A stretch of 64,000 bases of DNA from Acidimicrobiaceae bacterium (GCA_009837445.1 VXTM01000039.1:6408-70407); one strand, 5' to 3'. Shown: positions 1-14,682, counted from the first letter of the stretch. Numbers and translations are program-made. The notes: generated by a model from the sequence alone, not told the origin.

Positions 1-1290
1 GTCCCCTGCTTCTTGCAGCCGACGATCGAGTTCTGAAGCCTCGTCTTGATTGGTGTACCGGTCTCGCTTGAGGCGGTCAAGGTCGCTCCAGAGCATCCGT
101 AGACCGGTCTCACTCGAAGCTCGAGCGGCGTCCTCCAGGGCGTCCAGTCGTCGCTGGATGTCGCGCAACTGTCGTTCGACGTCCTCGATCCTGGCCGCTT
201 CGCCCGCAGCAGCCGCCTCCATCCGCGCGAGCACCTCGTCGCTTAGCGATTGGAAGCATGTCGGGCACTGGTCGGGGCCTACCCCTCTATCAGCCGAGGC
301 CCGTAGGACTTCGTGTCGCATCTTCTGAAGCTGCAAGCGTCGTTCCCGATCTCGCAGGCCTCCGGTGAGATCAGATGCACGAGTAGCGACGAGTGACTTC
401 CACGCCACTCGCATCTCGATGGCGATTTCGGCTTGACGAGTCTCGATCTGCTCATCGAGCGACTCGATGACGCCAACAAGCATGTCGCGCTTGTCCATCA
501 TCGCCGTGAGGCGCTCGTTGCGGCGGAGCTGCTCATCCAGATCTGCCTTGTCCTCACGCAACTGAGCGAGACTCGCCTCCATGTCGTCAAGTTCGTCCTG
601 AAGAACTTGGCGTTGGTCGAGCAGAACGTTCATCTGCGTTCCGAGTTCGCTCGTGATTGTGTTGGCCTGAGCGCTCCTTGCTTCCTTCTTGCCATAGTCG
701 TCGAGCAGCTTGGCAAGCGTCGCCCGTGAACGCGTGAGCACAGGAACTCCGAGGATCTGTTCGATTGCCTCGCTGATCTGGCGTCCCATGTCGCTCTCGT
801 TGCGCAAGAGATCTTCGTACTCCTGCAGGAGCTCTCCGTCGAACAGGAAGAACCGAGCGATCTTCTCCGGCATGATTCGCTCGATCTCAGCGGTGGCCTG
901 CCCGGGGCCGAGCACCTCCCCATCACGCTGAAGGAAATGCTCGACGTCGTAGTCGCTGTGCTGCTCAGGTACGACTCCGGAGCGCGGCCGGCAAGATCGC
1001 GTGAGTCTGTACTGGCTTCCGTCATCGTGAAACTGCAGGACCACCTCAAATCCGTACTGGCCCGCGGCGGCCTGCTCCCAGTTGCCGATGGTATGGAGCG
1101 AGCCCTCGCGGCGGGCTCGACCGAGCACCTTGCCGAAGAGCGCGAAGCGAATCGCGTTGAGCAGCACGGTCTTGCCCCGCATGTTCTCGCCGTAGACCAC
1201 GGCCACGCCTGGCGCCTCGGGCAAGTTGATCGCTTGGCGGCCCTTGAACGGGCCGAAGTCTTCGAGTTCGACTCGATCAATCCGAAGCAT
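1..1290 (-). CDS. DndD/Rad50(SbcC)-like SMC-type ATPase, N-terminal 430 codons only (gene continues past nt 1)
   Basis: This frame is not in the ORF track because it is open at the window edge. I translated it manually from ATG at 1290-1288: MLRIDRVELEDFGPFKGRQAINLPEAPGVAVVYGENMRGKTVLLNAIRFALFGK... It has Walker A GENMRGKT, the DndD-like FFLFDGE motif, then long heptad-like Glu/Leu/Arg/Gln-rich sequence with CPTC (codons 342-345, nt 267-256). No stop occurs down to nt 1. Confidence 0.8.
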   Translation of the reverse strand, partial: MLRIDRVELEDFGPFKGRQAINLPEAPGVAVVYGENMRGKTVLLNAIRFALFGKVLGRARREGSLHTIGNWEQAAAGQYGFEVVLQFHDDGSQYRLTRSCRPRSGVVPEQHSDYDVEHFLQRDGEVLGPGQATAEIERIMPEKIARFFLFDGELLQEYEDLLRNESDMGRQISEAIEQILGVPVLTRSRATLAKLLDDYGKKEARSAQANTITSELGTQMNVLLDQRQVLQDELDDMEASLAQLREDKADLDEQLRRNERLTAMMDKRDMLVGVIESLDEQIETRQAEIAIEMRVAWKSLVATRASDLTGGLRDRERRLQLQKMRHEVLRASADRGVGPDQCPTCFQSLSDEVLARMEAAAAGEAARIEDVERQLRDIQRRLDALEDAARASSETGLRMLWSDLDRLKRDRYTNQDEASELDRRLQEAGD

Positions 1291-1477
1291 CGGCCTCCCC
1301 CATCCTGTGCTCGATCGCTCGCTGAACTCGTTGATGGATCCTCGTGTTGTCGGGTTCCTCCACATGGGTGGAGACGATCTCGCGAAGAAGGGATTCCGGT
1401 ATGTCTTGATAAAGGGAGTCGCGAACTGACAGGAGGGTCTCCAGCAGCGACTCGAACTGCTCATTCGTCTTCGTCAA
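1277..1477 (-). CDS. Small acidic helical protein (66 aa), function unknown; candidate adaptor between the helicase and ATPase genes
   Basis: ORF-track entry MTKTNEQFESLLETLLSVRDSLYQDIPESLL... has non-artefactual composition. Its start overlaps the upstream gene's stop by 17 nt, and its stop overlaps the downstream gene's start by 14 nt, which indicates translational coupling. Confidence 0.6.
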   Translation of the reverse strand: MTKTNEQFESLLETLLSVRDSLYQDIPESLLREIVSTHVEEPDNTRIHQRVQRAIEHRMGEADASD

Positions 1478-3584
1478 TCTCGAATCCCTCCTCGACTAGA
1501 GCCCGCCAGTCAAGACCGTAGTCAACCGCGATCGTCTTCAATGCGACTACCCCGCCCGGGTTGACGGCGTGCTGACCGAACTCGATCGCTCGGGCCAGCT
1601 CACCCTTCACCATCGAACCTACTGGCACCTCTTGGCCGAGGCCTGAAGGGAGGACGATGGCGTCATGGATGTGCGCAATCGACTTCCCGGGCGCGGTCCG
1701 AAGAACGCGACCACGCCGTTGGATGAACTCCCTCGGGTTGCGCGAGGACGCCAGAATGAGGGCGTGGGACGTGGCCGGAATGTCCACACCCTCATCGAGG
1801 CAGCGAATAGCGATCACTACTCCGCCAGACTGCTCGAAGACGCGGAGCGTCGACTCCGGATCACCTTCCATCGCGGAGTGGTACTCGTAGACCTCCCGTA
1901 TCTCCGTCTGTTCGATAGCGCCCCGGACGGCTCGAAGCTGTTCTCGGTCCTCGCAATAGACAAGCCAGCGCTGTCCGTGCTCGAAGTGCCGCGATACGAC
2001 CTCCGCTGCGAGGGGGCTCTTGGCGGTGGCCTTCTTGGCGACGCGCGCACGCTGAATGAGTAGATGCCGGATCGCGTCATCGATCGGGGCTGGCTCCTCC
2101 TCGCCACGGATCGCGAGCTGCCTTCCGATCTCGGCGGTGAGTCGGTCCCACGCAGCCTGTTCGTCGTCGTCAAGCGACACCCGGTGGGGACGGTACGAAT
2201 AGGGCGTCAGACTGCCTGCCGCGATCGCATCCTGGAGTGTGAATGGAGGTGGCACGATCCCGTCGAAGTAGTCCATGAGCGCGGCCGTTCCGACCGGGTC
2301 GCCTGCCCGCCTGGGAGTCGCGCTGAGCCCCAGTCGTGGACCTGAAGAGAAGTGCAGCATTTGGCGGTGCGTCGGGCTTCCGGTTCGGTGCACCTCGTCG
2401 GCGACAACGAAGAGATGAGATCCGTCGCGAAGGAGCCGCCTGAACTTCTCTGAACTTGCGGTCTGCATGGTCGAAAGCACCGCCCGAGGCTCGGCCAGAC
2501 TGTCGTCGCGGGTCCAAAGGGAGAGCCGTCGCTGGTTCTCCCAGGCTCGGTTCCCCCCACCACACACCAGCAGCTGGAGCCCCCGAGACTCGAATGCTGT
2601 AGTGAGTTCGTCCTGCCACTGGACGAGTAGGAGTTCACTCGGAACGAGCACGAGCGGGACCTCGCCGAGTGCCAGGCTCTCGTGGATCGCGCACAGCGCC
2701 GTGAAGGTCTTGCCGCTGCCCGTGGCGTGCTCAAGGATGCCTCGCCGACCACGCTGCTCCCAGGCATCGAGTGCTGCAACTTGGTGTGGGCGGGGAGTCC
2801 GGGTGCCCAGCCTGTGATCTGCGGTGACACCGGCGTCCGTCTCCATTTCCTGACAGATCTCGTCGACATAGTCCTCCCAGCGCAACTCGTCGGCGATTTC
2901 AAGCAGCTCTTGCTGGACTACTTCTGGGAACGGCGTCACGGCGACACCTGGCTGCTGATCGTGCCAGAGGTTGTCGAAGTACTCGACTTCATCGGCTACG
3001 CGTCGCTCGTTCTCCTCGTTCCGCCAGGACGCGAAGACATCGATCGACTCAAGGTTGCCGTCGGCTGAGAGTCCTAGCCAGGTCTCGTTCATGGATCCCT
3101 TGAACACCACCTGCTGTTCGTCGACATCGGAGAAGATCCCGACCTTGTCGTGGAAGATCCTTCGGCTACGACCTGCGGTCTGCGGCTCAATCCAGGCAAT
3201 GCGGAGATCGATTACGCCACCAGCGACGAGGCTCGCGAGGACCTTCGTCGGCTTCTGAAGTACGGGCGAGGCCAGGAGTCGCTGCAGTTGCTCGCGAGCG
3301 TCAGTCGAGAACTGCTCGGCTCCAGAGGGGCTGTAGCCGACGTTCAACGCGTCGATGTCGTCACTTGAAAGAGCAGGCGAACAGACGAGCCTCATCCGAC
3401 CGCCGTAAGCGGCGAATTCCCGCAAGCTCGGCCACGCGAGCACGAACACGCTGCTGCTGAAGAACCCGACCGCTCGGTCGTAGCGGTGGGAGCGGCGCAT
3501 GCACGGCAGGTAGAAGTCGGCTGCGATGTCGTCCTCGCCCTTGTGGTACGAGAGCTTCAGCGTGACATCGCGCAGGCTGCTCAT
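1461..3584 (-). CDS. Phospholipase-D-like (single HKD) nuclease domain fused to a DEAD/DEAH-box SF2 helicase (type III restriction Res-like), 707 aa
   Basis: The N-terminal region has YDRAVGFFSSS, then FHDKVGIFSD...KGSMNET (HxK...GSxN, a PLD/Nuc-type signature, one copy only). Helicase motifs are I EHATGSGKT, II VVADEVH, III LGLSATP, and VI QRRGRVLR. Confidence 0.85.
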   Translation of the reverse strand: MSSLRDVTLKLSYHKGEDDIAADFYLPCMRRSHRYDRAVGFFSSSVFVLAWPSLREFAAYGGRMRLVCSPALSSDDIDALNVGYSPSGAEQFSTDAREQLQRLLASPVLQKPTKVLASLVAGGVIDLRIAWIEPQTAGRSRRIFHDKVGIFSDVDEQQVVFKGSMNETWLGLSADGNLESIDVFASWRNEENERRVADEVEYFDNLWHDQQPGVAVTPFPEVVQQELLEIADELRWEDYVDEICQEMETDAGVTADHRLGTRTPRPHQVAALDAWEQRGRRGILEHATGSGKTFTALCAIHESLALGEVPLVLVPSELLLVQWQDELTTAFESRGLQLLVCGGGNRAWENQRRLSLWTRDDSLAEPRAVLSTMQTASSEKFRRLLRDGSHLFVVADEVHRTGSPTHRQMLHFSSGPRLGLSATPRRAGDPVGTAALMDYFDGIVPPPFTLQDAIAAGSLTPYSYRPHRVSLDDDEQAAWDRLTAEIGRQLAIRGEEEPAPIDDAIRHLLIQRARVAKKATAKSPLAAEVVSRHFEHGQRWLVYCEDREQLRAVRGAIEQTEIREVYEYHSAMEGDPESTLRVFEQSGGVVIAIRCLDEGVDIPATSHALILASSRNPREFIQRRGRVLRTAPGKSIAHIHDAIVLPSGLGQEVPVGSMVKGELARAIEFGQHAVNPGGVVALKTIAVDYGLDWRALVEEGFEIDEDE

Positions 3585-3585
3585 G

Positions 3586-4671
3586 TCAGTTCAGTTCGCC
3601 CAGGAGACGCTTGCGGGACAGATCGACTCGCAGAGCGATCGCTTCCGCGAGGTGTTCTCCGGTCGCTGCCACGACTGTCTCGCGCACCATCTTCCCTCCC
3701 CCCGGTCGCAGCCTCCGCTCTTGCAGGCCGATCCCGCGGGCGTAGGCGGCCAGGATCGTCTCGGACTTGACCTGCACGTTCCGGGAATAGGCAAAGTCTC
3801 GGTAGGCACCGGCGTCCCAGAGGACAAACACGGCGTCGTCAGCTGCGTAGCCCACGAGGAGCACAATCCGGCCGTCCGCGAGGTCGAAGTTGCCTCGCTG
3901 TCCTCGCTCGTGATTCGGCACGATGAGCTGGATCTTGTACTCGCCAGCAGGACGCCCTCCTGGAGGACGCGTCGCGTTGTACATGTACACGCGAGCCCGC
4001 AAGGGGAGTGAACCCACCATCTTGAGTTCCAGCGGCTTGACCCCAAGGTCTGAAGACTCGACAACCAGGTCGCTGAGCGCAGCCAGGAACTCAGCGTGAA
4101 GCTCTGACGGCGTCATGCGATCGTTCGGTGTCATGGCCCCAGGACGACTCGGTGTGCCCGGATCTCGGCCCGTCGTCATCAGATCGCGGAGGCGTTGTGC
4201 TCCGTCGTCACACTTGACCGCGCAAATGGTTCGCAGCGAGCTCAGTGAGTTCCGGAGATCCTCATGGGCGGCCTCCCAGGGCACGTCGGTGCGCTTCCAG
4301 TCCACCGATACCACGTGACGCCTGCCCGGGTCCGGATCGTCCCGGTACCAGTACTCCCGGGTCACCAGGCCGATTGCAATCTGACGTGTCTTCTTGCGAG
4401 GCAGCACGATTAGGTCGCCGACGCTCACATGTGCTCGCAGCGCCCACAGCTGGCCTGAGTAGTTGGCCACGCTCATCTTGTTCCTGCCAGGGAGCAGCCG
4501 GCGAACCATGTCCTTCATCTCGCCACGGCTTGAGATGCTCGACAGATCCGGGAGGCGGTCGAAGCCGGTGCCCGCAACGCCGTGTTCAAGAACGAAGTCC
4601 TCGCGTTCACCACGTCTCCCGGCCCTAGTGAGCCAAGCCGTCGGCACCTCGGTGCGATTGGTGTCTGCCAT
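3586..4671 (-). CDS. Two-domain hypothetical protein (361 aa), first gene of the operon; possible DNA-sensing or nuclease partner
   Basis: Composition is clean. The stop at 3586-3588 lies 1 nt from the start of the PLD-helicase gene. The N-terminal ~170 aa (AWLTRAGRRGERE..., GQLWALRAHVSVGDLIVLP..., HVVSVDWKR) resembles a module I recall preceding Mrr-type catalytic domains in actinobacterial proteins annotated as restriction endonucleases. That is from memory only. I do not recognise the C-terminal ~170 aa (YMYNATRPPGGRPAGEYKIQLIVPNHERG...). Confidence 0.7.
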   Translation of the reverse strand: MADTNRTEVPTAWLTRAGRRGEREDFVLEHGVAGTGFDRLPDLSSISSRGEMKDMVRRLLPGRNKMSVANYSGQLWALRAHVSVGDLIVLPRKKTRQIAIGLVTREYWYRDDPDPGRRHVVSVDWKRTDVPWEAAHEDLRNSLSSLRTICAVKCDDGAQRLRDLMTTGRDPGTPSRPGAMTPNDRMTPSELHAEFLAALSDLVVESSDLGVKPLELKMVGSLPLRARVYMYNATRPPGGRPAGEYKIQLIVPNHERGQRGNFDLADGRIVLLVGYAADDAVFVLWDAGAYRDFAYSRNVQVKSETILAAYARGIGLQERRLRPGGGKMVRETVVAATGEHLAEAIALRVDLSRKRLLGELN

Positions 4672-4963
4672 CAGCTGTCCCTAAGTCACGAGCATCGTAC
4701 GAGCCTCGTGCGACACGACCGCTGAACGCGGTGGCAGTCGTTGCACGTTCCCGGCAGCGCGGTCAGTCTGATGGTCACCTTGCAGCGTTCGGCTGCGTCG
4801 CCCGGTGAATGATGTGACCCGACGATTCGGATTGGCCGCCGGAGAGGCCAATGAGGTGGGGTGTCCGAGGTTCGACCGAGGCGAGGGGTAGGTTCCTGTG
4901 GCAACGGAGGTTGAGGCGGAGCTTGTTGACCGCCGAGATCTTTGTCCCGAATAGGAGTCCCCT

Positions 4964-7780
4964 ATGCCTATCAGCGAGTCTCAGGAGACGGGCAGCATCG
5001 GTGAGAGCGAAGTTGAAGCCAAGTTCAAGCGCATTGGTTGGAACCCCGTGCGCAATTCGAGTCTCGAGTTGGGCACCGACTACCTGATAGAGGCCCGCGA
5101 TTTTCGTCGACGCCCTCGAGGTCTGATCGTGGGCGCACAGGTAAAGTCGGGGGCTAGCTACTTCGAGCGCCCGGTGCTGGAGGCGGATGGCACCGCGTCT
5201 GGCTGGTGGTACTACGAGTCCGACACCGATCACTTCGATGATTGGGCGACCCACGGCCTACCTCACCTGCTGGTTCTACACGATCTCGACACGAACACGT
5301 CCTATTGGGTACACGTGACAGCAAGCTCGGTCGAGTCCACCGGTCAAGGATGCAAGATTCTCGTGCCGGCAAGCCAGACCATCGATCCTGCGCACGCTGA
5401 CGACCTATTCGACGTCGCCTGCAAGCAGAATGCGGCTCCCTTGATCGAAGGCACAGCCTTCTTCGGTGCATCCGAGGGCATCTCGCCGGCCCGGCGGCTG
5501 CGCTATGCGCTGATCTCGCCCAGACTGGTGGCACCGCACCCCAATGCCGGGACAGACGAGCCAATCGACGCACTTCAAGCCGTCGCGTTGTTGGCTCAGG
5601 GGCGGTTGCGCGACCTCATTCGATTCGCCGAGAAGCACCCGAGCGTTCCTGATCCGCGGATCGGTCACGCCGAAAGTGACTGGACGTGGCGGTTCGTTGA
5701 GGCCATCTGGACCTGGGCCATGACGGACGCCGTCGAGCAGTTGGAGGGCGTGCTCGGGTCGGCGCACACCAAGGACGCCGCTGCTGCGAGCGGAGTGCTC
5801 CTGGCCTGTGCATTGCAACGACTTGAGCGCTATGAGGATGCCCTGGAGGTGCTGGATGGCCTGGCAAGCAGAAGCGACTTGCTGCCAGTGGACCACGGGT
5901 GGATTCTCGTTCAGCGAGGCCGGGTCCGTGCTGAGATTGGTGATGTTGCTGGGGCTCGCTCCGATGCGGCTGGAGCGCAAAGAAGCCTCGCTGGAGACGA
6001 GGACGACATCACTGCTTCAGCGCTTGCGGCGGCTGCGGCATGGTTGCTCTTCGCAACGACGCTCCTCGTTCCCCACAAAGTCGATGAATGGGCTCTCGGT
6101 CTGGCTGAGACGCTTACGGCGTCGGACACGGCAGTCTCATGGTGGCGTTCCCAGAGAGTCTCGTGGGGTCTGCAGGAGGTTGAGGGAGAGTGGTTCAAGT
6201 CGTGGGCTCAGGATCGGTCACGCACGGTCATTGAGGGGGGCGGCCCCAACGCTCTTGACCTGTTCGCGGCCGAGTTCAGCGCGGACATCACGGGTGAGCA
6301 CAGCAGCTGGCAGGCAATGTCGGCACTTGCGGCTCGTCAGCGGCTGATGGGAGCCGAGAGCACCAACGATCGAGTCTTCGAGATGGTAGAGGGTCTTGAC
6401 GCTCTGCGTCGGAGTGGAGACCATCGGTCGCTCAAGCTTGCCGTGGAGCGTCTCCATCGCGACGGTCCGCTGGAAGCGGTGTCCATATCCGTGAACAAGA
6501 TCCCGATAAGTGGGTGGACACACACGACAGCCCTTTCCAACCTTGAGGCGCTGGCACGCGCCGGAGACCTAGTCGTAGAAGAATCCGCGAGTGAGCTTTC
6601 TCTCCAATGCGCTCAGCTGACGAGCGGAGACACGACGGACTTCGAAGAGCGCACCCGACCGAGGTTCATTGTCTCGTGCTACGCCCTTTGGGCGGCCGTT
6701 GGCTTGAGCGCGGCAGCCAACGATGTGGCACATGACGAGATCGCTGCGCTGATTGCCGCCGAGCACGACAAGGGACGAGATTTCATCTATCAGGAATGCG
6801 CCAAGGCAGTCGGCCATATGGAGTTCGATCGGGTTACCGGCACGGCCAAGGAGGCGCTGTGGAACTGCGGTCAGCAGGACCAGGGCCAGCTCGGCGCCGC
6901 AGTCCTGGGCTGGCTCGCTGCCAACGGTCATACTGATGCGCGTACGGAGGTGATCAGCCGAGCTGTTGGCGGTGATCTCCATGCGCTTGATGCCATGGGC
7001 GACAGGAGTGCATTCGACAGCGCGGAGGCGGCCTCCCTTATCGTTCAGCTTGAGGGCATGGTGGAGCGAACAGTGGCCGAGGCACGTCAGGGCTCATTCT
7101 CGTTGGGTGGCCTCGACGCGGGTGTCCTGTTGACGCTGCTGAATCTGGAGTTTCCCCCAGAGGCTCGGTGGAGCGCCGTCGTGGAGCTGTTGTGTGAGCC
7201 TGCGGTAGCATCGCTCGACAAGCGCCCGTCGTGCCTGGCGATTTCCGAGCTCTCGACCCAGCTGCCCGCGGAAGTGCGTCAGACCCTCGCCGCGAACGTT
7301 GACTCCATTGGAGGCACAGGATCGGTTGCCTGGGGTGCATCCCACATCGGCGGTATCGGCACCCTTCTGGGGATCGCGCTGGGGGAGCTCGAAGGAGACG
7401 ACGCTGACGTAGCGGCCACGGCGCTCGCGTTCGGCGACACGCAACAGCGCCGAGACATCGCCAAACTGCTGGGCGCGGGTCGATGCCACGCACTTCAGCC
7501 GCTGCTCGCTGCCCTGGTTGGAGACCCAAACCCTGATGTTCGTTACGAGGCCGGCATCGCCGTCGGCAGAATCGTTGCCGCCACCCACACGAAGCCGATA
7601 CACACGCTGGCATGGGAACTAGCCAAGAGGGACGGGACCTGGCTGCCGTCAGCACTGCTCACCGGGCTGGCTTGCACCGATCCTCCGCTGGCGGGCACCG
7701 GAGAGAAAATAGCGAGTCACCTCCAGACGCACCCGTCGGCCCGGGTGAGTCGTTCGGCGAGTCGTCTTCTGCTCTCTTGA
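4964..7780 (+). CDS. DUF4365-type (PD-(D/E)xK-like) N-terminal nuclease domain fused to a ~770-aa helical-repeat (TPR/HEAT-like) region, 938 aa
   Basis: The N-terminus GSIGESEVEAKFKRIGWNPVRNSSLELGTDYLIEA...GAQVKSG matches the remembered DUF4365 pattern (G..GE..v...f...GW......D.G.D..IE......QVKs). The C-terminus carries a HEAT-like DPNPDVRYEAGIAVGRI. The middle is Ala/Leu-rich helical repeat. No Walker A motif was seen anywhere in the protein. Confidence 0.8.
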   Translation: MPISESQETGSIGESEVEAKFKRIGWNPVRNSSLELGTDYLIEARDFRRRPRGLIVGAQVKSGASYFERPVLEADGTASGWWYYESDTDHFDDWATHGLPHLLVLHDLDTNTSYWVHVTASSVESTGQGCKILVPASQTIDPAHADDLFDVACKQNAAPLIEGTAFFGASEGISPARRLRYALISPRLVAPHPNAGTDEPIDALQAVALLAQGRLRDLIRFAEKHPSVPDPRIGHAESDWTWRFVEAIWTWAMTDAVEQLEGVLGSAHTKDAAAASGVLLACALQRLERYEDALEVLDGLASRSDLLPVDHGWILVQRGRVRAEIGDVAGARSDAAGAQRSLAGDEDDITASALAAAAAWLLFATTLLVPHKVDEWALGLAETLTASDTAVSWWRSQRVSWGLQEVEGEWFKSWAQDRSRTVIEGGGPNALDLFAAEFSADITGEHSSWQAMSALAARQRLMGAESTNDRVFEMVEGLDALRRSGDHRSLKLAVERLHRDGPLEAVSISVNKIPISGWTHTTALSNLEALARAGDLVVEESASELSLQCAQLTSGDTTDFEERTRPRFIVSCYALWAAVGLSAAANDVAHDEIAALIAAEHDKGRDFIYQECAKAVGHMEFDRVTGTAKEALWNCGQQDQGQLGAAVLGWLAANGHTDARTEVISRAVGGDLHALDAMGDRSAFDSAEAASLIVQLEGMVERTVAEARQGSFSLGGLDAGVLLTLLNLEFPPEARWSAVVELLCEPAVASLDKRPSCLAISELSTQLPAEVRQTLAANVDSIGGTGSVAWGASHIGGIGTLLGIALGELEGDDADVAATALAFGDTQQRRDIAKLLGAGRCHALQPLLAALVGDPNPDVRYEAGIAVGRIVAATHTKPIHTLAWELAKRDGTWLPSALLTGLACTDPPLAGTGEKIASHLQTHPSARVSRSASRLLLS

Positions 7781-7971
7781 GCGGCTCGGCTGCGCGGCCA
7801 ACGGAGCGATCCGTGCTGCCCGCCCCCGAGATCAGCATGCTTCTTCGTTAGCGTCATCATCATGGGCTACTGGAAGCATCAATTGCACAAGCCTCGCGCT
7901 AGGAATGTGTGACTTGCCTTTAGGGTGAGCCCGTACCCCCTTGGCGTGTGCTGTAGGTCGGAGAAGATTAT

Positions 7972-8595
7972 ATGAAAATAGATGAAGCCCGTACGTTGGA
8001 TCGTGGATCGCCTGAACTATCTAAACTGATCTTCTTCGATACGAATGTTGTTCAGAACCTTCATTCCTGCGGCGAGTTCATCTATGACAGCTTTCTTGAT
8101 CCCGTGATGGATGCCCAAATGTCGGCCAGGGGCTCCCGGTTCAGGGATGACATGTTCGCACTCGCAGACTTCATGGCGTTGGGGCGTCGTAACGGTTGGC
8201 CAATCGCGGTCTCACCCGGGATACTTGAAGAGCTAGGAGCTATACGACAACCTGGCAAGCGCCTTGCGCTGACCGTCTGGGCCAACGAGCTTGCGCACTA
8301 TTGCGCCCAGCTCCGAGAATCACGCGATGCCGCTGAAGCGTCGTGCTACGGCGAAGTAGAGAGATTCACGGTAGCTCAGCGGTGTTGGCTGTCCGATCGG
8401 TTGGCGATCTTGCCGCAAGAGAGCGATCGACAGTTGGTCATCGACGCGCTGGAGCACGGTTGCGATGTATTCCTTACCATGGACTACAAGACAATCTGGC
8501 GCTACCGGGACGAGTTGGATCGATTCGGGTTACGAGTGATGCGGCCAGTTGAACTCCTTGAACACGTCGACCCCCAGGCAGGCCTCCTCCGGTAG
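7972..8595 (+). CDS. PIN-domain-like nuclease (207 aa), no adjacent antitoxin-sized ORF
   Basis: KLIFFDTNVVQNL (PIN beta1 Asp), ILEELG, and a C-terminal DALEHGCDVFLTMDYK acidic cluster. A GGAGAAG Shine-Dalgarno sits ~6 nt upstream of the ATG. The gene and its leader are markedly AT-richer than the surroundings. Confidence 0.65.
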   Translation: MKIDEARTLDRGSPELSKLIFFDTNVVQNLHSCGEFIYDSFLDPVMDAQMSARGSRFRDDMFALADFMALGRRNGWPIAVSPGILEELGAIRQPGKRLALTVWANELAHYCAQLRESRDAAEASCYGEVERFTVAQRCWLSDRLAILPQESDRQLVIDALEHGCDVFLTMDYKTIWRYRDELDRFGLRVMRPVELLEHVDPQAGLLR

Positions 8596-8848
8596 CCGAT
8601 GCCTTCTGCGAATCGGTCGGGTAGCCGCCGCTGCAACGCCCCGACCCGAGTGTCGGTCTCACGCTAGAGTCGCCGCATCAGGTCGACCGCATGCGGATCG
8701 AACGCTCAGTTCTCCGGGATCGCCAGGTCGTCCCTTCTCGGTCGCCGTAGGGCACCGCTGTCGCCCGAGGAGCCTCCCGCGATGTAGGCAGGTGCGAGGC
8801 CGTCGTCGGTTTCGTTCCCGATCAGCGGTAGCGGCCAGTCCAAGACGT

Positions 8849-8886
8849 GAACGCCTTCAGTCGTGCAGACCCGACTGAAGGCGTTC
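8849..8886. repeat. Perfect 15-bp inverted repeat with 8-nt loop (GAACGCCTTCAGTCG-tgcagacc-CGACTGAAGGCGTTC)
   Basis: Read directly in the sequence. It lies in the 526-bp non-coding stretch between the PIN gene and the integrase 3' end. It could be a bidirectional terminator or a recombination-related site. Confidence 0.7.
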
Positions 8887-9121
8887 AATATCGGCCCGTG
8901 CCGGGCCGTACGTTAGAAGATCCGTTAGAAGTTGGGCCTCTGGGCTCGGATTGGGAGTCTTGCCGAGGCCAAAGAAATGGGCCTTGAACAGGTATTTTGC
9001 GTGGAGCCCGAGACAGAATCGAAGCTGCGAACTGCTGTCTTGGAGACAGCAGGAGTCAGGCCAGTTGTCCAGCGCCACGATGGGGAGGCCGAGCCGCAGC
9101 CGCGCGGGTGCAGTTCCGTTG

Positions 9122-10273
9122 TCAGGTGCCCTTCATGGAGACGTATTGGCCCCATTGCTCCATGACCTCGGCGCGCGCGTCGAGCAGATCCGAGCGCTGG
9201 TAGGCGCCCTCGACGCCTCGCACTGTGTGGCCGAGGCTCATTTCGGCCACTTCTCGGGTGATGCCTTGTTCGGCGCACCAGCTGCGGAACGAGGATCGCA
9301 GGCCGTGCGGTGTCATGGCCAGGCCCTGATCGCGGCATAGCTTCGATAGTGCCTCTACCGTGGTCTGGTGGCCGCGCCGGTTTGGGAACACGTATCCGCT
9401 GTTGTCGCTGTGGGTGCGGGCCTGATCCAGCACCGCCAGCGCCGCGGATGATAGCGGCACTCGCTGGGGTTTGGCGGTCTTGGTTCTGTTTGCGGGGATG
9501 GTCCACACATCGCCGTGGATCTCGTCCCAGCGCATACCGCGTACTTCGCTGGAGCGGGTCGCGGTCAGAGCCAGCATCCTGATGGCGGCTTTGGTGGACC
9601 AGAACGCGGCGCTGGCGTCGATGGTGTCCAGCGCGGCCGGGACTTCGCTCGCGGGCAGCGAGTCGAAGTGGCCGCCGGTGCCGGCGTGGCGGGGCAGCAA
9701 GCCTGCGAGGGCTTCGCCTGCGGGGTTGGTGGAGATGTGGTTCGAGGCGACCGCCCATCTGAACGCCATGGCGAGCCGTTGACGCAGCTTGCGGCCCAGT
9801 TCGGGTTTCGTGGTCCATACCGGGTTGAGCACGGCCAGGATGTCGGCGGTGCTCACCTGGTCGACGCGGCGGTCGATGATGGCGGCGGCATGGTTGTGCA
9901 CCGAGGACCGCCAGGCCTTGGCGGTGCGCGGGTTGCGCCAGTGCTGCTCGCGGGTCGCGATCGCTTTCTCCAGTGCCTCGGCGACGGTCGGCATCTCCGG
10001 GGACCGCAGGTCGCGGCCGTGCTCGACGGTGCGGCGGTTCTCTACGCATTTGGCCCGTGCCTCCGCGAGGGTGACTATCGGGTAGCTGCCCAGGCCGACC
10101 ATCGCTGGTTTGCCGCCGATGTAGAGGCGTTGGCTCCAGGTCTTGGACAGTCGGCCGTTGCGGGTGGTGCGCACCAGTAGGCTGAGCCCATACCCGCCTC
10201 TTCCGTCTCCGTACCTTCCGGGCTTGTTTACGGTGCGCACGAAGGCAGCGGTGAGCGTTCTGGGTCGGTCCAT
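9122..10273 (-). CDS. int: Tyrosine recombinase / phage (P4-like) integrase with N-terminal arm-binding (DUF4102-like) domain
   Basis: The N-terminus GRYGDGRGGYGLSLLVRTTRNGRLSKTWSQRLYIGGK...LGSYPIVTLAEARAK is typical of P4-type integrases. Catalytic-region motifs are TATRSSEVRGMRWDEI, HGLRSSFRSW, and LGHTVRGVEGAYQRSD. Confidence 0.9.
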   Translation of the reverse strand: MDRPRTLTAAFVRTVNKPGRYGDGRGGYGLSLLVRTTRNGRLSKTWSQRLYIGGKPAMVGLGSYPIVTLAEARAKCVENRRTVEHGRDLRSPEMPTVAEALEKAIATREQHWRNPRTAKAWRSSVHNHAAAIIDRRVDQVSTADILAVLNPVWTTKPELGRKLRQRLAMAFRWAVASNHISTNPAGEALAGLLPRHAGTGGHFDSLPASEVPAALDTIDASAAFWSTKAAIRMLALTATRSSEVRGMRWDEIHGDVWTIPANRTKTAKPQRVPLSSAALAVLDQARTHSDNSGYVFPNRRGHQTTVEALSKLCRDQGLAMTPHGLRSSFRSWCAEQGITREVAEMSLGHTVRGVEGAYQRSDLLDARAEVMEQWGQYVSMKGT

Positions 10274-10479
10274 CAGTATCCTTTACATTATTACTTCTTG
10301 GGTGGCACTGCAGGGTACTGAACGGCACAGGGCGGCGCAACTTCTCCGACCAGTTGCCGCATAATACAGGTCTTGACCTGTTAGTTGTGATCCACCATGG
10401 CACACAGCGACACATGACAGCACAAGTGGCTTCAATACCCGTACGGGGTGCTGAGGAGACTCGCCCGCTGGCTGGTCGG

Positions 10480-10839
10480 TCAGGCTGGCTGGTTGAGCTC
10501 GATCATGTTGCCGGCCGGGTCGAAGAAGAAGGTCTGGCGGGCTGCTGTGCCCGGCAGTGGTATGGGATCGTCCACCTTCACGCCCCGGCCCCGCAGCTCG
10601 GCCACCGCGGCGTCGATGTCTTCCACCTTGAATGCCCAGTGCTGGCCGGCGGGGGGCACCCAGCCCTCGACCTCGATGAGGTGGACCTCGCCGCCGCCGG
10701 GGCTCTGCAGCCAGCGGCCGTTGAAACCGAAGTCCGGCCGCGCCAGCACGGCCATGCCCAGCACGTCGGTGTAGAACGGCGCGGCCGCCTCGACGTCGGG
10801 GACGTTGATCGACACGTGGTGTACAGGGCCTAGCTCCAT
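10480..10839 (-). CDS. VOC / glyoxalase-family protein (119 aa)
   Basis: The C-terminal part of ORF 10480-11319 is MELGPVHHVSINVPDVEAAAPFYTDVLGM...FFFDPAGNMIELNQ. The start was taken at the ATG at 10839; the upstream part of that ORF is Arg/Pro/Ala-rich artefact. Confidence 0.8.
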   Translation of the reverse strand: MELGPVHHVSINVPDVEAAAPFYTDVLGMAVLARPDFGFNGRWLQSPGGGEVHLIEVEGWVPPAGQHWAFKVEDIDAAVAELRGRGVKVDDPIPLPGTAARQTFFFDPAGNMIELNQPA

Positions 10840-10849
10840 ACCGGCCACG

Positions 10850-11665
10850 CTAGCGGCGCTGGCAGACGGGGCACCAAGTGGTGCCGCGGGCGTCGACCAC
10901 CTTGCGGCGCAGCTCCGTCCCGCAGCGCTCGCACGGTTCGCCGGCCCGTCCGTAGCAGCGCAGATGGTGCTGGTTGCTCCCCCGTGCGCCGTCCAGTGCG
11001 GCGTAGTCGCGCAGCGTGGTGCCGCCGTGGCGCAGCCCTGAGGCCAGCGCGGTCCGGATGGCGCCAGCCAGAAGGCCGGCCCGGGGCCTCGACAGGTGGC
11101 GGATGGAAGGGTTGACACCCGCCAGCCAGAGCGCCTCGTCGGCGTAGATGTTGCCCACCCCCGCAACCGGCCGCTGTGACAGGAGTTGGGTCTTGACGCA
11201 GCGCCGGCTGGCCCGCAGGGCCCGCCAGAGGCTCTCGCCGGTGAAATGGTCGCTGAACGGCTCGGGGCCGAGGCGGTGGAGGGTCGCGATGGTCTCGTGC
11301 CGGCCCGCGGGCACCACATGGACCCGGCCGAACCGGCGCACGTCGTGCAGCGTCAGCGCGTCGTCGTCATCGAGTCGCCACCAGGCCCGCAGGTGCGGAT
11401 GGGACAGATCGATAGCGGGCCCGACCGCCAGCCTGCCGGTCATGCCCAGATGGATGACCAGCTCGCATCCGGACTGGCTGGAGTCGTCCAGATCCACGAT
11501 CAGGTACTTGCCCCGGCGGCGGACCGCGGTCACGTCGCAGCCGACCGCCTCCACCGCAGGGGTGAACTTCGCCGACGGATGGGAGCCCGCGTCGGTGATC
11601 GAGCGGCCCTCCAGCCGCGGCTGCAGCTGGGCTCGGATGGTCTCCACCTCGGGAAGCTCGGGCAC
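10850..11665 (-). CDS. Formamidopyrimidine-DNA glycosylase / Nei-family DNA glycosylase
   Basis: PELPEVE N-terminus, H2TH region, and C-terminal zinc finger CERCGTEL...WCPVCQ. The start was moved to the GTG (Val in MRPV|PELPEVE) so that the catalytic Pro is residue 2, as the family requires. Confidence 0.85.
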   Translation of the reverse strand: MPELPEVETIRAQLQPRLEGRSITDAGSHPSAKFTPAVEAVGCDVTAVRRRGKYLIVDLDDSSQSGCELVIHLGMTGRLAVGPAIDLSHPHLRAWWRLDDDDALTLHDVRRFGRVHVVPAGRHETIATLHRLGPEPFSDHFTGESLWRALRASRRCVKTQLLSQRPVAGVGNIYADEALWLAGVNPSIRHLSRPRAGLLAGAIRTALASGLRHGGTTLRDYAALDGARGSNQHHLRCYGRAGEPCERCGTELRRKVVDARGTTWCPVCQRR

Positions 11666-11728
11666 CGGCCGCACCGTACCGGAGCCGGCCCGGTCGGCGG
11701 GGACGGCCTGCCGGCTAGCGCAGGAGGG

Positions 11729-12037
11729 TCAGGCTGCGGCGATGGATCCGGCCGCGCCCCGCACGATCGCGTCGATCAGGTCGATGAGCTCGGGCCGGCT
11801 CCTGAAGTACTCGGCCTGCTCGCCCGTCCACGGCTGGATGAGCTCATCGGGGTCGAACCCGGCCCGCTGCCACGTGGTGGCGATCACTCGCAGGGCCGAG
11901 TCCACCTCCGGAGAAGCGGCCGTGACCGCCGCTACCGCCATCGCATCGATATCGACGGTCTCGCTGGTCACCAGCGGGCGCCGGATCGTGGAGATCCGGA
12001 ACCTGATGGCCTCCGCGGCGATGCGAGTGTGGTTCAT
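11729..12037 (-). CDS. Hypothetical protein (102 aa)
   Basis: The ORF has ordinary composition (MNHTRIAAEAIRFRISTIRRPLV...EYFRSRPELIDLIDAIV) and an AT-richer upstream region. I recognise no family. Confidence 0.45.
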   Translation of the reverse strand: MNHTRIAAEAIRFRISTIRRPLVTSETVDIDAMAVAAVTAASPEVDSALRVIATTWQRAGFDPDELIQPWTGEQAEYFRSRPELIDLIDAIVRGAAGSIAAA

Positions 12038-12135
12038 GGGCTACGTCACTAGCTGCGGCAGTCGTAGTAGTTCGGTATACAAATTACTGTTTTCCACAAC
12101 GCAAATGGTGGACCCTCGTGCCGTGGCGACACCCT

Positions 12136-13152: not shown

Positions 13153-13159
13153 CCCCAGT

Positions 13160-13200
13160 TGATCCACAGACTCATCTGAGTTATCCACAGATTGCCCACA
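13160..13200 (+). promoter_or_regulatory. Cluster of three same-orientation DnaA-box-like 9-mers (TGATCCACA, TTATCCACA, TTGCCCACA)
   Basis: Read directly: 13160-13168, 13181-13189 (an exact match to the classical TTATCCACA box) and 13192-13200. They lie immediately upstream of the preferred ferrochelatase start. A fourth box, TTTTCCACA, is at 12090-12098. Confidence 0.4.
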
Positions 13201-13223
13201 GGCAGGACCGGCGTGGAGGCAGG

Positions 13224-13925
13224 TCAGTCCAGCACGCCGAAGCTCTTAATGTCTTCGTCGAGGGTCGAGAGGATGCGGTCGATCGTCTCCTCGCGGGTGG
13301 TGCGGCGGGTCAGGCCGAACGCGGTCCGGCGGACATGGCCGGCCAGCGCGCCGGCCCGTTCCAGCGCGGCCTCATGCAGGTCCTCGGCGGCGACCACCTC
13401 GTCGAGGTAGCCGGCCTCGACCGCGCCGCGGGGCGAGAACACGGTGGCCAGCGACGTGGCTGCGGTGAAGTGCCGGGGACTGAGCCGGTCCCGGGCCAGC
13501 TCGATGGCGAAGATAGGCAGCGGCATGCCGATGGACACCTCGGTGAGCCCGATCTTGGCCTCTACGTCGGCGCCGATGCGCACATCGCTGGACAGCAGCA
13601 TGATCGCCCCGAACGCCAAGGCGTGGCCGGTGCACGCAGCTACCACCGGCACCTGCGCCCCGTAGATCCGCGCCGCGGTGCGGGCCCCCGCGGCCACCAG
13701 CGCCTGAGCGGCCTCGGGTCCCTCGCCGATGACGCTCAGGTCGAAGCCGGCGCTGAAGCGGCCCTCCCGGCCCGAGATCACGAGGGCTCCCGCGTCCTGC
13801 TCGGCGGTCTCGAGGGCGGCGTCGATGGCCTCGAGCGTGTCGTAGCCCACCGCGTTGGCCTTGCCGTCGTCGAGGAGCAGGACGGCCACTCCGTCGTCGA
13901 TCAAGAAGGAGGTCTTCGATGTCAT
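13224..13925 (-). CDS. Enoyl-CoA hydratase/isomerase (crotonase) family protein
   Basis: MTSKTSFLIDDGVAVLLLDDGKANAV...ISGREGRFSAGFDL...AACTGHALAFGA. The start was taken at the ATG at 13925; the longer ORF upstream is Ser/Arg-rich artefact. Confidence 0.85.
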   Translation of the reverse strand: MTSKTSFLIDDGVAVLLLDDGKANAVGYDTLEAIDAALETAEQDAGALVISGREGRFSAGFDLSVIGEGPEAAQALVAAGARTAARIYGAQVPVVAACTGHALAFGAIMLLSSDVRIGADVEAKIGLTEVSIGMPLPIFAIELARDRLSPRHFTAATSLATVFSPRGAVEAGYLDEVVAAEDLHEAALERAGALAGHVRRTAFGLTRRTTREETIDRILSTLDEDIKSFGVLD

Positions 13926-14670: not shown

Positions 14671-14682
14671 AGGGAAGACTCC

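What the first reader, a model, noticed from the sequence alone, without database searches (positions are those of the whole stretch)
1..4671. Tightly coupled four-gene operon (unknown two-domain protein / PLD-helicase fusion / 66-aa protein / DndD-Rad50-like ATPase): candidate undescribed defence system
All four genes are on the minus strand and are packed for translational coupling. There is a 1-nt gap between the first and second genes, a 17-nt overlap between the second and third, and a 14-nt overlap between the third and fourth. They sit in a lower-GC island with an integrase. The domain set is an HKD nuclease plus SF2 helicase, and an SMC-like ATPase with Walker A GENMRGKT, the DndD-type FFLFDGE motif and a coiled-coil. 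That is a nucleic-acid surveillance and degradation toolkit. The order large effector - very small protein - SMC-like ATPase echoes Lamassu (LmuA-LmuC-LmuB / DdmABC). The ATPase head looks DndD-like, as in Dnd/Pbe modules. I do not recall a PLD-helicase fusion as the partner in either case. No dnd/ssp modification genes or methyltransferase are visible in the window. The operon is cut by the window edge, so further components may lie to the left. The divergently transcribed DUF4365 gene (4964-7780) may also belong to the system.
Basis: partly seen in the sequence, partly recalled or inferred. Interest (0 to 1): 0.85.

Follow-up and report, generated by a model that had tools for sequence, protein, structure and literature searches.

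The report
Methylase-linked PbeABCD defence operon
The four tightly packed genes are real, but they are not an undescribed system: they are the window-truncated part of a PbeABCD (CxC-type ABC ATPase plus DndE) anti-virus operon of the already catalogued subtype that pairs with DNA methylases and MTaX1 proteins instead of phosphorothioate genes.

Summary
All four minus-strand ORFs, their 1-nt gap and 17-nt and 14-nt overlaps, the quoted motifs and the low-GC integrase island are present.

The interpretation "undescribed system" does not hold.
- Gene 2 matches PADLOC PbeA over its full length (5.6e-208).
- Gene 4 matches PbeC (2.9e-135 truncated, 4.4e-220 complete).
- Gene 3 is a conserved 66-aa PbeB under purifying selection.

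I recovered the missing left flank from contigs that encode the identical PbeA. It holds:
- the rest of PbeC;
- a 128-aa PbeD whose AlphaFold model matches only DndE crystal structures;
- then, convergently, a second MTaX1 protein with a PD-(D/E)xK-like tail and two paralogous N6_N4-family methyltransferases.

No dnd genes are present.

Gene 1 has an N-terminal DUF8426 domain, which gives a weak EVE/YTH-like fold match, fused to MTaX1.

The eight-gene cassette travels as a unit in more than ten Acidimicrobiia MAGs at different chromosomal sites. At about 50–55% identity it recurs in Burkholderia and Steroidobacteraceae with domain swaps.

Xiong 2019 and Rakesh 2024 (which cites Krishnan 2020) already describe this methylase/MTaX1-coupled form. 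It has only been described by computation. The DUF4365 gene is independent of the cassette.

Verdict: new member of a known kind, low-to-moderate interest.

The parts
3586..4671 (-). g1: DUF8426 (putative PUA/EVE-like reader) + MTaX1 protein, 361 aa. Its stop lies 1 nt upstream of the PbeA start.
   Evidence: Sequence matches:
- Pfam MTaX1, 2e-23, residues 226-345.
- PADLOC PDC-S02, 2.7e-47, residues 11-181.
- Precomputed PF28530 DUF8426.

In other proteins DUF8426 is fused to Mrr_cat.

The AlphaFold model has pLDDT 76 and two domains. The Foldseek top hits are the EVE proteins 1zce and 2gbs, YTHDF2 7yxe and the PD-(D/E)xK enzyme I-Ssp6803I. Probabilities are 0.94-1.0, but E-values are only 1e-3 to 2.5e-2.

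An MTaX1 gene always sits directly upstream of PbeA in related cassettes. In L014 an IS element has displaced it.
1461..3584 (-). PbeA: single HKD (PLD-family) nuclease domain fused to an SF2 (ResIII/DEAD-type) helicase, 707 aa.
   Evidence: - PADLOC PbeA, 5.6e-208, residues 3-675 against profile positions 1-664 of 672.
- NCBIfam TIGR04095 dnd_restrict_1, 4.7e-96, below its curated cutoff (322.5 vs 600 bits).
- Pfam ResIII, DEAD and Helicase_C.
- Motifs H145xK147, GSMN163, GSGKT289, DEVH396, SAT421 and QRRGR622.
1277..1477 (-). PbeB: 66-aa acidic small protein, TTG start, overlapping the PbeA end by 17 nt and the PbeC start by 14 nt.
   Evidence: - No profile hit, as expected for the rapidly evolving 'SP' of PMC10853773.
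- Same size as H. jeotgali PbeB (66 aa, PMC6459918).
- ORF conserved, pN/pS about 0.38, and the alternative frame is broken by stop codons.
- Independent gene calls of 65-69 aa at the same position in L016, L017, L020 and L021.
1..1290 (-). PbeC: N-terminal 430 of 658 aa of the CxC-clade (DndD-sister) coiled-coil ABC ATPase with a CPTC zinc hook. It is cut by the window edge.
   Evidence: - PADLOC PbeC, 2.9e-135 for the fragment.
- 4.4e-220 for the full 658 aa from L002, residues 2-621 against profile positions 1-631 of 632.
- Best DndD score 6.9e-46 for the full protein; LmuB 1.1e-14 for the fragment.
- Walker A at 34-41 and CPTC at 342-345 in mid coiled-coil. C-terminal head has SAGAEH and IFIDSPFGRLD.

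Best explanation
Window 1-4671 is the upstream two-thirds of a PbeABCD-type defence operon, also called the 'CxC ABC ATPase-DndE anchored system'. It belongs to the subtype that is linked to DNA methyltransferases and MTaX1 proteins rather than to dndCDEA phosphorothioation.

The full cassette has eight genes. Four are in the window and four lie just left of it:
- [DUF8426-MTaX1] -> PbeA (HKD nuclease + SF2 helicase) -> PbeB (66 aa) -> PbeC (zinc-hook ABC ATPase) -> PbeD (DndE-like, two ribbon-helix-helix repeats).
- Convergent with these: [MTaX1 + PD-(D/E)xK-like domain] <- MTase 1 <- MTase 2.

Shown here: the identity of each part, the gene order, and the co-inheritance of the cassette.

Inferred mechanism, by analogy with the tested PT-coupled Pbe system and with ATP-dependent R-M systems:
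1. The two paralogous methyltransferases mark host DNA.
2. The PbeC dimer with PbeD loads on and scans DNA. PbeD supplies site recognition.
3. The g1 protein, through its DNA or modified-base reading N-domain and MTaX1, reports whether sites carry the self mark.
4. On unmarked (invader) DNA, PbeA is licensed to translocate and to block replication or cut.
5. PbeB acts as a small regulatory or inhibitory subunit.
For: Component identities:
- PbeA and PbeC: full-length PADLOC matches.
- PbeD: AF2 model with pLDDT 89 and an E-H-H/E-H-H-long-H-H topology. In the PDB, 15 of the 16 best Foldseek hits (ranks 1-13, 15 and 16) are DndE structures (4lrv, 5wtu, 7x4e), with probability up to 1.0 and TM 0.5-0.67.
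- PbeB: conserved and under purifying selection.
- MTaX1: present in g1 and in the convergent 329-aa protein.
- Methyltransferases: two N6_N4_Mtase proteins with motif I (DPFCGSG) N-terminal to motif IV (TDPPF), which is circularly permuted relative to the Pfam model. Each matches one half of a 1344-aa fused PADLOC MTase_II.

No dnd or ssp genes:
- None in the 22-kb locus.
- None among the 20 largest likely genes of the rest of the window.

Co-inheritance:
- The same cassette occurs in L007-L011, L013 and L015-L017 at different chromosomal sites.
- It also occurs at 50-55% identity in Obscuribacterales, Burkholderia gladioli and Steroidobacteraceae. There it has HTH_17-MTaX1, MTaX1-HNH and a fused double methylase.

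Literature:
- PbeABCD defined and shown to protect against virus SNJ1; 155 of 320 dnd-less PbeAC pairs lie next to MTases (PMC6459918).
- PbeA = HKD+SF2, PbeB = small protein, PbeC = CxC ABC ATPase, PbeD = DndE cognate. [quoted passage not shown]

A decayed copy also fits R-M-like logic. In L014 an IS element replaces g1 and a PbeA-PbeC deletion fusion is present, while both methylases stay intact.
Against: - No experiment exists for any methylase-coupled Pbe system. The only tested system is PT-coupled and archaeal, and it did not visibly cut viral DNA (PMC6459918).
- PbeD and PbeB have no sequence-level match to any profile. PbeD membership rests on a predicted fold with modest Foldseek E-values (about 1e-2).
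- The EVE/YTH-like assignment of DUF8426 is weak. E-values are 1e-3 to 2.5e-2, no sequence link was found, and I could not see which domain of the model each hit aligned to.
- The methylated base is unknown. The TDPPF motif is more typical of N6-adenine enzymes, whereas PMC10853773 speaks of cytosine methylases.
- The second MTaX1 gene is missing in L011, L012 and L017, so it is not obligatory.
- The methylase module shows a different divergence from the Pbe module in L017 (96-97% vs 78%). The two modules therefore recombine independently.
Confidence: 0.8

Rival explanations
1. These are two independent neighbouring systems. One is a conventional R-M-like module: the MTaX1-PD-(D/E)xK nuclease with MT1 and MT2. 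The other is a 'solitary' g1-PbeABCD module that works without reading those methyl marks, for example by sensing invader DNA ends or replication intermediates.
For: - The two modules are convergently transcribed.
- The MTaX1 protein next to the methylases carries its own nuclease-like domain: a D..EVK motif here and HNH_2 in proteobacteria.
- In L017 the methylases are 96-97% identical to the window's copies while PbeA is 78% identical, which points to independent exchange.
- Rakesh 2024 argues that Dnd-type modification and restriction modules are often functionally decoupled.
Against: - Methylases accompany the Pbe genes in every copy examined, across three phyla, whatever the flanks.
- Both modules carry paralogous MTaX1 domains at 42-47% identity.
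- The nuclease-bearing MTaX1 gene is the dispensable one: it is absent in L011, L012 and L017. In those loci the methylases would have no restriction partner other than Pbe.
Confidence: 0.12
2. It is a phosphorothioate-dependent Pbe system like the archaeal prototype. The dndCDEA or ssp genes would be encoded elsewhere in the genome, and the methylases would be unrelated.
For: - The only experimentally tested PbeABCD depends on PT (PMC6459918).
- NCBIfam TIGR04095 'DNA phosphorothioation system restriction enzyme' hits PbeA at 4.7e-96, below its curated cutoff (322.5 vs 600 bits).
- The whole genome could not be searched here.
Against: - No Dnd or Ssp hit in the 22-kb locus or in the 20 largest likely genes of the 64-kb window.
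- 58% of PbeAC pairs lack nearby dnd genes, and about half of those sit by MTases.
- The methylases and MTaX1 genes co-travel with Pbe.
Confidence: 0.05
3. It is a modification-dependent (Type IV-like) system. The EVE-like domain of g1 recognises modified bases on invader DNA and directs PbeA to it. The resident methylases would serve another purpose or protect by a different mark.
For: - DUF8426 is also found fused to Mrr_cat nucleases (PADLOC candidate PDC-S02), which is a typical Type IV architecture.
- The fold hits are to EVE and YTH modified-base readers.
Against: - In most homologous cassettes the equivalent protein carries a plain HTH_17 domain instead of DUF8426. The reader domain is therefore interchangeable with a generic DNA binder.
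- Cognate methylases are always present.
- The fold evidence is weak.
Confidence: 0.05
4. It is a previously undescribed, Lamassu-like defence system.
For: The gene order of large effector, tiny protein and SMC-like ATPase superficially resembles LmuA-LmuC-LmuB. There is a weak LmuB hit at 1.1e-14.
Against: - The PbeA and PbeC profiles match over their full length at 1e-135 to 1e-220.
- A DndE-fold PbeD follows PbeC.
- No LmuA or LmuC match was found.
- The architecture is published.
Confidence: 0.02

Closest known systems
PbeABCD of Haloterrigena jeotgali A29 (dndCDEA-pbeABCD; Xiong et al. 2019, PMC6459918)
   Same: - The same four-gene order A-B-C-D in one operon.
- PbeA is a PLD/HKD + DEAD-type helicase.
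- PbeB is 66 aa in both.
- PbeC is a DndD-like coiled-coil ATPase.
- PbeD is small (128 aa here, 152 aa there).
- PADLOC PbeA and PbeC profiles match over their full length.
   Different: - No dndCDEA next to it; two DNA methyltransferases take that place.
- An extra MTaX1 gene is translationally coupled upstream of PbeA, and a second MTaX1-nuclease gene is present.
- The host is bacterial (Acidimicrobiia MAG) rather than haloarchaeal.
- No functional data exist for this form.
CxC ABC ATPase-DndE anchored systems with methylases and MTaX1 (Krishnan et al. 2020 as cited in, and Rakesh et al. 2024, PMC10853773, Fig. 4A iv)
   Same: This is the component list described there:
- HKD+SF2 helicase;
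- small rapidly evolving protein;
- Zn-hook CxC ABC ATPase;
- DndE cognate;
- circularly permuted methylase(s);
- MTaX1-domain gene.
That work also predicts methylation in place of PT as the self mark.
   Different: Local domain swaps relative to the proteobacterial cassettes fetched here (L020-L022):
- DUF8426 replaces HTH_17 on the upstream MTaX1 protein.
- A PD-(D/E)xK-like domain replaces HNH_2 on the second MTaX1 protein, and that gene sits on the other side of the operon.
- The double methylase is split into two genes and lacks the N-terminal HTH.
- Motif IV is TDPPF, whereas the paper describes cytosine methylases.

I could not read the 2020 paper or the figure itself.
DndABCDE / DndD-DndE core
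   Same: PbeC is the sister clade of DndD (DndD PADLOC hit 6.9e-46; FFLFDGE and IDSPFGRLD motifs). PbeD has the DndE two-RHH fold.
   Different: There is no DndA, DndB or DndC. PbeC carries the CPTC zinc hook that canonical DndD lacks. The PbeC profiles score far better than the DndD profiles.
Type I/III and Type ISP ATP-dependent restriction-modification enzymes
   Same: A translocating SF2 helicase is fused to a nuclease, and cognate methyltransferases supply the self mark. PDB sequence hits to the helicase of LlaGI and LlaBIII reach 2.5e-5.
   Different: The nuclease is HKD rather than PD-(D/E)xK. Target recognition is predicted to come from an ABC ATPase/DndE pair rather than from a TRD or HsdS. 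The methylases are separate and convergently encoded.
Lamassu (LmuACB / DdmABC)
   Same: An SMC/Rad50-like coiled-coil ATPase with a small partner and a nuclease effector.
   Different: It belongs to a different ABC clade (LmuB 1.1e-14 vs PbeC 1e-135). No LmuA or LmuC homologue is present, a DndE partner is present, and the cassette includes methylases.

Membership tests
PbeABCD / CxC ABC ATPase-DndE system | PbeA: HKD (PLD-superfamily) nuclease fused to an SF2 helicase | tested here: met
   PADLOC PbeA 5.6e-208 over the full length. HxK at 145-147, GSMN at 163, and helicase motifs I, II, III and VI. Pfam ResIII, DEAD and Helicase_C.
PbeABCD / CxC ABC ATPase-DndE system | PbeB: small (~60-70 aa), rapidly evolving protein encoded between PbeA and PbeC | tested here: met
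   A 66-aa ORF at 1277-1477, conserved in 8 loci with pN/pS about 0.38. ORFs of 65-69 aa were called at the same position in L016, L017, L020 and L021. Sequence similarity to the archaeal PbeB was not tested.
PbeABCD / CxC ABC ATPase-DndE system | PbeC: DndD-sister coiled-coil ABC ATPase with a Cys-based Zn hook at the coiled-coil apex | tested here: met
   PADLOC PbeC 4.4e-220 over the full length. CPTC at 342-345 of 658 aa, between the Walker A head (34-41) and the C-terminal signature/Walker B. Zinc binding itself is not testable here.
PbeABCD / CxC ABC ATPase-DndE system | PbeD: DndE cognate with two tandem ribbon-helix-helix units, encoded immediately after the ATPase | tested here: met
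   The gene lies outside the window (L002 14264-14650) and overlaps the PbeC stop by 8 nt. The AF2 model has pLDDT 89 and topology E-H-H/E-H-H-H. The Foldseek top hits are all DndE structures. There is no sequence-level hit.
PbeABCD / CxC ABC ATPase-DndE system | Adjacent dndCDEA phosphorothioation module (the prototype only; 42% of PbeAC pairs) | tested here: not met
   No Dnd or Ssp match within the recovered 22-kb locus or the rest of the window. This is not a universal feature of the family (PMC6459918, PMC10853773).
PbeABCD / CxC ABC ATPase-DndE system | Confers protection against viruses | not testable with these tools
   Shown only for H. jeotgali dndCDEA-pbeABCD (PMC6459918).
Methylase/MTaX1-coupled CxC-DndE subtype (PMC10853773 Fig. 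4A iv) | DNA methylase gene(s), C5 and/or circularly permuted N4 type, in the same neighbourhood | tested here: met
   There are two N6_N4_Mtase proteins of 588 and 586 aa, with motif I placed before motif IV. They are present in every homologous cassette. The target base is not determinable; the motif is TDPPF.
Methylase/MTaX1-coupled CxC-DndE subtype (PMC10853773 Fig. 4A iv) | Gene encoding an MTaX1 domain | tested here: met
   Two are present: g1 (Pfam MTaX1 2e-23) and the 329-aa protein in L002 at 14683-15672 (1.8e-18).
Lamassu | LmuB-type SMC ATPase with LmuA effector (and LmuC) | tested here: not met
   LmuB scores only 1.1e-14 against 2.9e-135 for PbeC. There is no LmuA or LmuC hit for any gene.
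DndABCDE modification system | DndC PAPS-reductase-like ATPase and DndA/IscS desulfurase together with DndD-DndE | tested here: not met
   No DndA, DndB or DndC hits. The ATPase scores as PbeC rather than DndD.

The most novel reading that the evidence does not exclude
The cassette is a working restriction-modification machine of a kind never tested. A zinc-hook ABC ATPase/DndE clamp scans DNA. A PUA/EVE-like-MTaX1 adaptor, translationally coupled to PbeA, reads base methylation laid down by two paralogous methylases as the self mark. An HKD-helicase then executes restriction. MTaX1 would be the shared adaptor domain that couples interchangeable DNA readers (HTH_17 or DUF8426) and interchangeable nucleases (HNH or PD-(D/E)xK) to the Pbe core.
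Probability: 0.4. Interest if true: 0.5.

Novelty: new member of a known kind. Interest (0 to 1): 0.25.

Why it matters
It removes a false 'new defence system' lead. It also shows what a window edge can hide, since the methylases and PbeD sit just beyond position 1.

The positive value is modest but real.
- It gives a complete, well-conserved eight-gene example of the methylase-coupled Pbe subtype. That subtype has been catalogued by comparative genomics but never tested experimentally.
- Comparison with the proteobacterial cassettes exposes clean domain swaps around the MTaX1 domain: HTH_17 vs DUF8426, HNH vs PD-(D/E)xK-like, and fused vs split methylases. These swaps mark MTaX1 as the likely adaptor.
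- A cassette of this type, for example the Burkholderia gladioli version, could show whether Pbe systems cut DNA, and whether methylation can replace phosphorothioation as their self mark. Both questions are open and disputed between the two published accounts.

Tried and rejected
- Sequence searches for PbeD found nothing: Pfam and PADLOC at E<=1, PDB phmmer, and a PDB profile of 22 homologues. Only the predicted fold linked it to DndE.
- Sequence searches for the DUF8426 domain found nothing: Pfam at E<=10, and a PDB profile search.
- PbeB has no hit in any library.
- g1 has no PDB sequence relative.
- No tRNA gene lies in window 1-20000.
- No direct repeat of 12 nt or longer was found between the integrase-proximal junction and the distal 3 kb of the contig, so the island ends and att sites were not defined.
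- Sigma-70 and terminator consensus scans of the divergent intergenic region (window 4500-5100) found nothing. In the convergent junction they found one terminator-like hairpin, on the minus strand inside the PbeD coding region (L002 14570-14599) and of doubtful relevance.
- Krishnan et al. 2020 (PMC7544218) is not held, so its description of MTaX1 is known only through PMC10853773.
- One context look-up failed: P0266 from Egibacter is not on record.
- Rejected: Lamassu membership, DUF4365 as a system component, and the 716-aa PbeC gene model.


Full report
OBSERVATION

The four minus-strand ORFs exist exactly as described:
- g1: 3586-4671, 361 aa.
- g2: 1461-3584, 707 aa.
- g3: 1277-1477, 66 aa, TTG start nine bases after GAGGAGGG.
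- g4: from 1290 to beyond position 1; 430 codons are inside the window.

The junctions are a 1-nt gap, a 17-nt overlap and a 14-nt overlap. GC content is 0.61-0.64 over the first 10 kb and about 0.70 afterwards. A tyrosine integrase lies at 9122-10273.

WHAT THE GENES ARE

- PADLOC profiles place g2 in PbeA over its full length (5.6e-208).
- They place g4 in PbeC (2.9e-135 for the fragment). The best DndD profile reaches only about 1e-24 and LmuB 1.1e-14.
- NCBIfam gives TIGR04095 'DNA phosphorothioation system restriction enzyme' for g2 at 4.7e-96, below that model's curated cutoff (322.5 vs 600 bits).
- g3 has no profile hit.
- g1 carries Pfam MTaX1 at residues 226-345 (2e-23). Its N-terminal domain matches the first half of the PADLOC candidate PDC-S02 (2.7e-47).

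RECOVERING THE LEFT FLANK

The exact PbeA protein is encoded on at least 15 public contigs. One is VXRU01000050.1 of GCA_009838345.1, an Acidimicrobiaceae MAG. Its first 13,584 bases differ from the reverse complement of the window at a single position.

In these contigs the operon continues with the rest of PbeC (658 aa; PADLOC PbeC 4.4e-220, profile positions 1-631 of 632). A 128-aa gene follows and overlaps the PbeC stop by 8 nt.

Three genes then converge on the operon:
- a 329-aa MTaX1 protein;
- two paralogous N6_N4_Mtase methyltransferases of 588 and 586 aa, 37% identical to each other.

Each methyltransferase matches one half of a 1344-aa fused PADLOC MTase_II model. Each has motif I (DPFCGSG, about residue 65) ahead of motif IV (TDPPF, about residue 378), which is circularly permuted relative to the Pfam model.

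No dnd or ssp gene is present in the 22-kb locus. None appears among the 20 largest likely genes of the remaining 54 kb of the window.

THE SMALL GENES

PbeB:
- The 66-aa ORF is intact in all seven close relatives.
- Mean pN/pS is 0.106/0.275 in its frame.
- The alternative frame, used by one annotation to extend PbeC to 716 aa, has pN>pS and stop codons in four of seven loci.
- A 63-aa ORF with a similar DLPEALVEAIL core sits at the same place in a locus whose PbeA is 51% identical.
- Independent gene callers report 65-69-aa genes there in four further loci.

PbeD:
- The 128-aa protein has no sequence match to Pfam DndE, to PADLOC or to the PDB, even as a 22-sequence profile.
- Its AlphaFold model (pLDDT 89) has strand-helix-helix twice, then a long helix and a C-terminal helix.
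- In a Foldseek search of the PDB, 15 of the 16 best hits (ranks 1-13, 15 and 16) are DndE structures (4lrv, 5wtu, 7x4e), with probability up to 1.0 and TM 0.5-0.67.
- This is the 'DndE cognate' that Rakesh et al. assign to PbeD.

GENE 1 AND THE SECOND MTaX1 PROTEIN

Homologues of g1 fall into three architectures:
- DUF8426+MTaX1, about 40 clusters, from Acidimicrobiia-type metagenomes.
- DUF8426+Mrr_cat, which is PDC-S02.
- HTH_17+MTaX1, far more numerous, about 275 aa, often annotated 'excisionase family DNA binding protein'.

The g1 model has pLDDT 76 and two domains joined by a disordered linker. Its best PDB matches are the EVE proteins 1zce and 2gbs, the YTH domain of YTHDF2, and the PD-(D/E)xK enzyme I-Ssp6803I. 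Probabilities are 0.94-1.0 but E-values are only 1e-3 to 2.5e-2.

I take this as a moderate hint that DUF8426 is a PUA/EVE-like reader. The output does not show which domain each hit aligned to. No sequence-level link was found.

The convergent MTaX1 protein has a strongly conserved C-terminal block, DPLFDVGWI...AWIAEVKSLT...EERQLRLGLGQVLSY. This has the pattern of a PD-(D/E)xK nuclease. That reading is a motif-based inference only.

CO-OCCURRENCE

tblastn of all island proteins against related loci shows the whole cassette is syntenic in L007, L008, L009, L010, L013 and L015, with PbeA at 74-96% identity. The cassette is g1-PbeA-PbeB-PbeC-PbeD, converging with MTaX1b-MT1-MT2. L011 and L017 lack only MTaX1b.

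The flanks differ between loci:
- L015/L016: DUF6361, a helicase and DUF6119.
- L017: a T2SSE-type ATPase gene (PF00437) among unannotated ORFs, and another integrase.

At 50-55% PbeA identity the same logic appears in three further lineages:
- an Obscuribacterales MAG (L012);
- Burkholderia gladioli CP068049.1 (L020);
- Steroidobacteraceae (L021, L022).

The proteobacterial cassettes read: [MTaX1-HNH_2] divergent from [HTH_17-MTaX1]-PbeA-69 aa-PbeC-PbeD, converging on a single HTH-fused double methylase of about 1337 aa.

The window's cassette is therefore a domain-swapped version of a widespread architecture:
- DUF8426 stands in for HTH_17.
- A PD-(D/E)xK-like domain stands in for HNH.
- Split methylases stand in for the fused one.

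In L017 the methylases are 96-97% identical to the window's copies while PbeA is 78% identical, so the modules recombine.

L014 is a decayed copy at the same chromosomal neighbourhood (glyoxalase and fpg). An IS-like gene replaces g1, and PbeA residues 1-372 are joined to PbeC residues 191-658. PbeD, MTaX1b and both methylases are intact. Losing restriction while keeping modification is what R-M logic predicts.

THE DUF4365 GENE

The 938-aa DUF4365+HEAT protein (4964-7780) and the 207-aa ORF after it are absent from every other copy of the cassette. The DUF4365 protein belongs to a large family of about 930-aa proteins. That family sits in unrelated defence islands:
- next to an AIPR gene in L018;
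- next to a PLDc_2-helicase, a Type ISP-like methylase and a SIR2_2 gene in L019. L019 is 3.2 Mb away from the Pbe cassette in the same genome as L009.

It is an independent neighbour, not a component of the system.

LITERATURE

Xiong et al. 2019 (PMC6459918) defined pbeABCD:
- PbeB is 66 aa and PbeD 152 aa.
- All four genes are needed to protect against virus SNJ1.
- Protection depends on PT modification.
- No viral DNA degradation was seen.
- 320 of 553 PbeAC pairs lack dnd genes, and 155 of those lie next to MTases.

Rakesh et al. 2024 (PMC10853773) equate PbeABCD with the CxC ABC ATPase-DndE system of Krishnan et al. 2020. They assign PbeA as HKD+SF2, PbeB as the small protein, PbeC as a Zn-hook ABC ATPase and PbeD as DndE. 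[quoted passage not shown] They argue that DNA cleavage by PbeA is likely.

A 2025 review calls the restriction event 'obscure' (PMC12707154). I found no experimental paper on a methylase-coupled Pbe system.

MECHANISM

Shown: the identities of the parts, their order and their co-inheritance.

Inferred:
1. MT1 and MT2 mark host DNA.
2. The PbeC dimer with PbeD loads on DNA and scans it.
3. The upstream MTaX1 protein uses its DNA or modified-base reader domain to report whether sites carry the mark.
4. PbeA translocates and cuts or blocks unmarked DNA.
5. PbeB regulates.
6. The second MTaX1-nuclease is an optional extra effector.

Rivals, given with evidence in their own section:
- two independent neighbouring systems;
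- PT dependence with dnd genes elsewhere in the genome;
- a Type IV-like modification-dependent reading;

VERDICT

This is a new member of a known, computationally catalogued kind. Interest is 0.25. The residual value is a clean, complete example of the untested methylase/MTaX1-coupled Pbe subtype, plus the domain-swap pattern around MTaX1.

Noticed in passing
window 4964-7780 (+): This is a 938-aa protein with an N-terminal DUF4365 (restriction-endonuclease-like; weak PADLOC hit to pAgo-associated REase, 1.5e-16) and a long helical, HEAT-like C-terminal region. It belongs to a large family of about 930-aa proteins conserved over their full length (39-88% identity) in Acidimicrobiia, Egibacter and Dehalococcoidia. 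The family sits in varied defence islands, next to AIPR, a PLDc_2-helicase plus Type ISP methylase, and SIR2_2. It looks like an uncharacterised stand-alone defence candidate, unrelated to Pbe.
   Followed up: partly
window 7972-8595 (+): A 207-aa ORF with no hit in Pfam, NCBIfam or PADLOC. It has an N-terminal LIFFDTNVV and a C-terminal FLTMDYK, which look like PIN-domain acidic motifs. It lies co-directionally downstream of the DUF4365 gene but was not seen next to DUF4365 homologues in L018 or L019.
   Followed up: partly
L014 9904-12513 (JAJEDD010000007.1): A decayed copy of the cassette. An IS-like transposase gene lies where g1 should be. PbeA has a frameshift at residue 40. A deletion joins PbeA residue 372 to PbeC residue 191, so PbeB is lost. 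PbeD, MTaX1b and both methylases remain intact. The copy is at the same glyoxalase/fpg neighbourhood as the window, but the cassette is inverted relative to the integrase.
   Followed up: partly
L017 15911-19404 vs L002 15700-19199: The two methylases are 96-97% identical to the window's, while PbeA (78%), g1 (69%) and PbeC (70%) in the same locus are much more diverged. MTaX1b is missing there. This suggests recent exchange of the methylase module between cassettes.
   Followed up: no
L002 14683-15672 (-), just left of the window: The second MTaX1 protein has a C-terminal domain that no library recognises. It carries an invariant D..(A/V)EVK..Q pattern typical of PD-(D/E)xK nucleases. In proteobacterial cassettes the equivalent protein carries HNH_2 instead.
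   Followed up: partly
L012 13446-14030 (-): In the Obscuribacterales cassette a 194-aa gene sits between PbeD and the fused methylase. Its N-terminus, EWSAVIEALGSGKQTILIRKR, resembles ASCH/PUA-like proteins. It may be a free-standing counterpart of the reader domain that is fused to MTaX1 in the window.
   Followed up: no
window 33333-34919 (+): A 528-aa likely gene gives a lone PADLOC hit to mad3 of the MADS system (8.1e-31, profile positions 1-350 of 374). No other MADS components were found among the large ORFs scanned. It is probably a generic family match.
   Followed up: no
L002 12121-14271: The GenBank gene model for PbeC in GCA_009838345.1 (716 aa) starts 58 codons too early and swallows the PbeB region in another frame. 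Other assemblies aa. PbeB is left unannotated in most of these records.
   Followed up: yes
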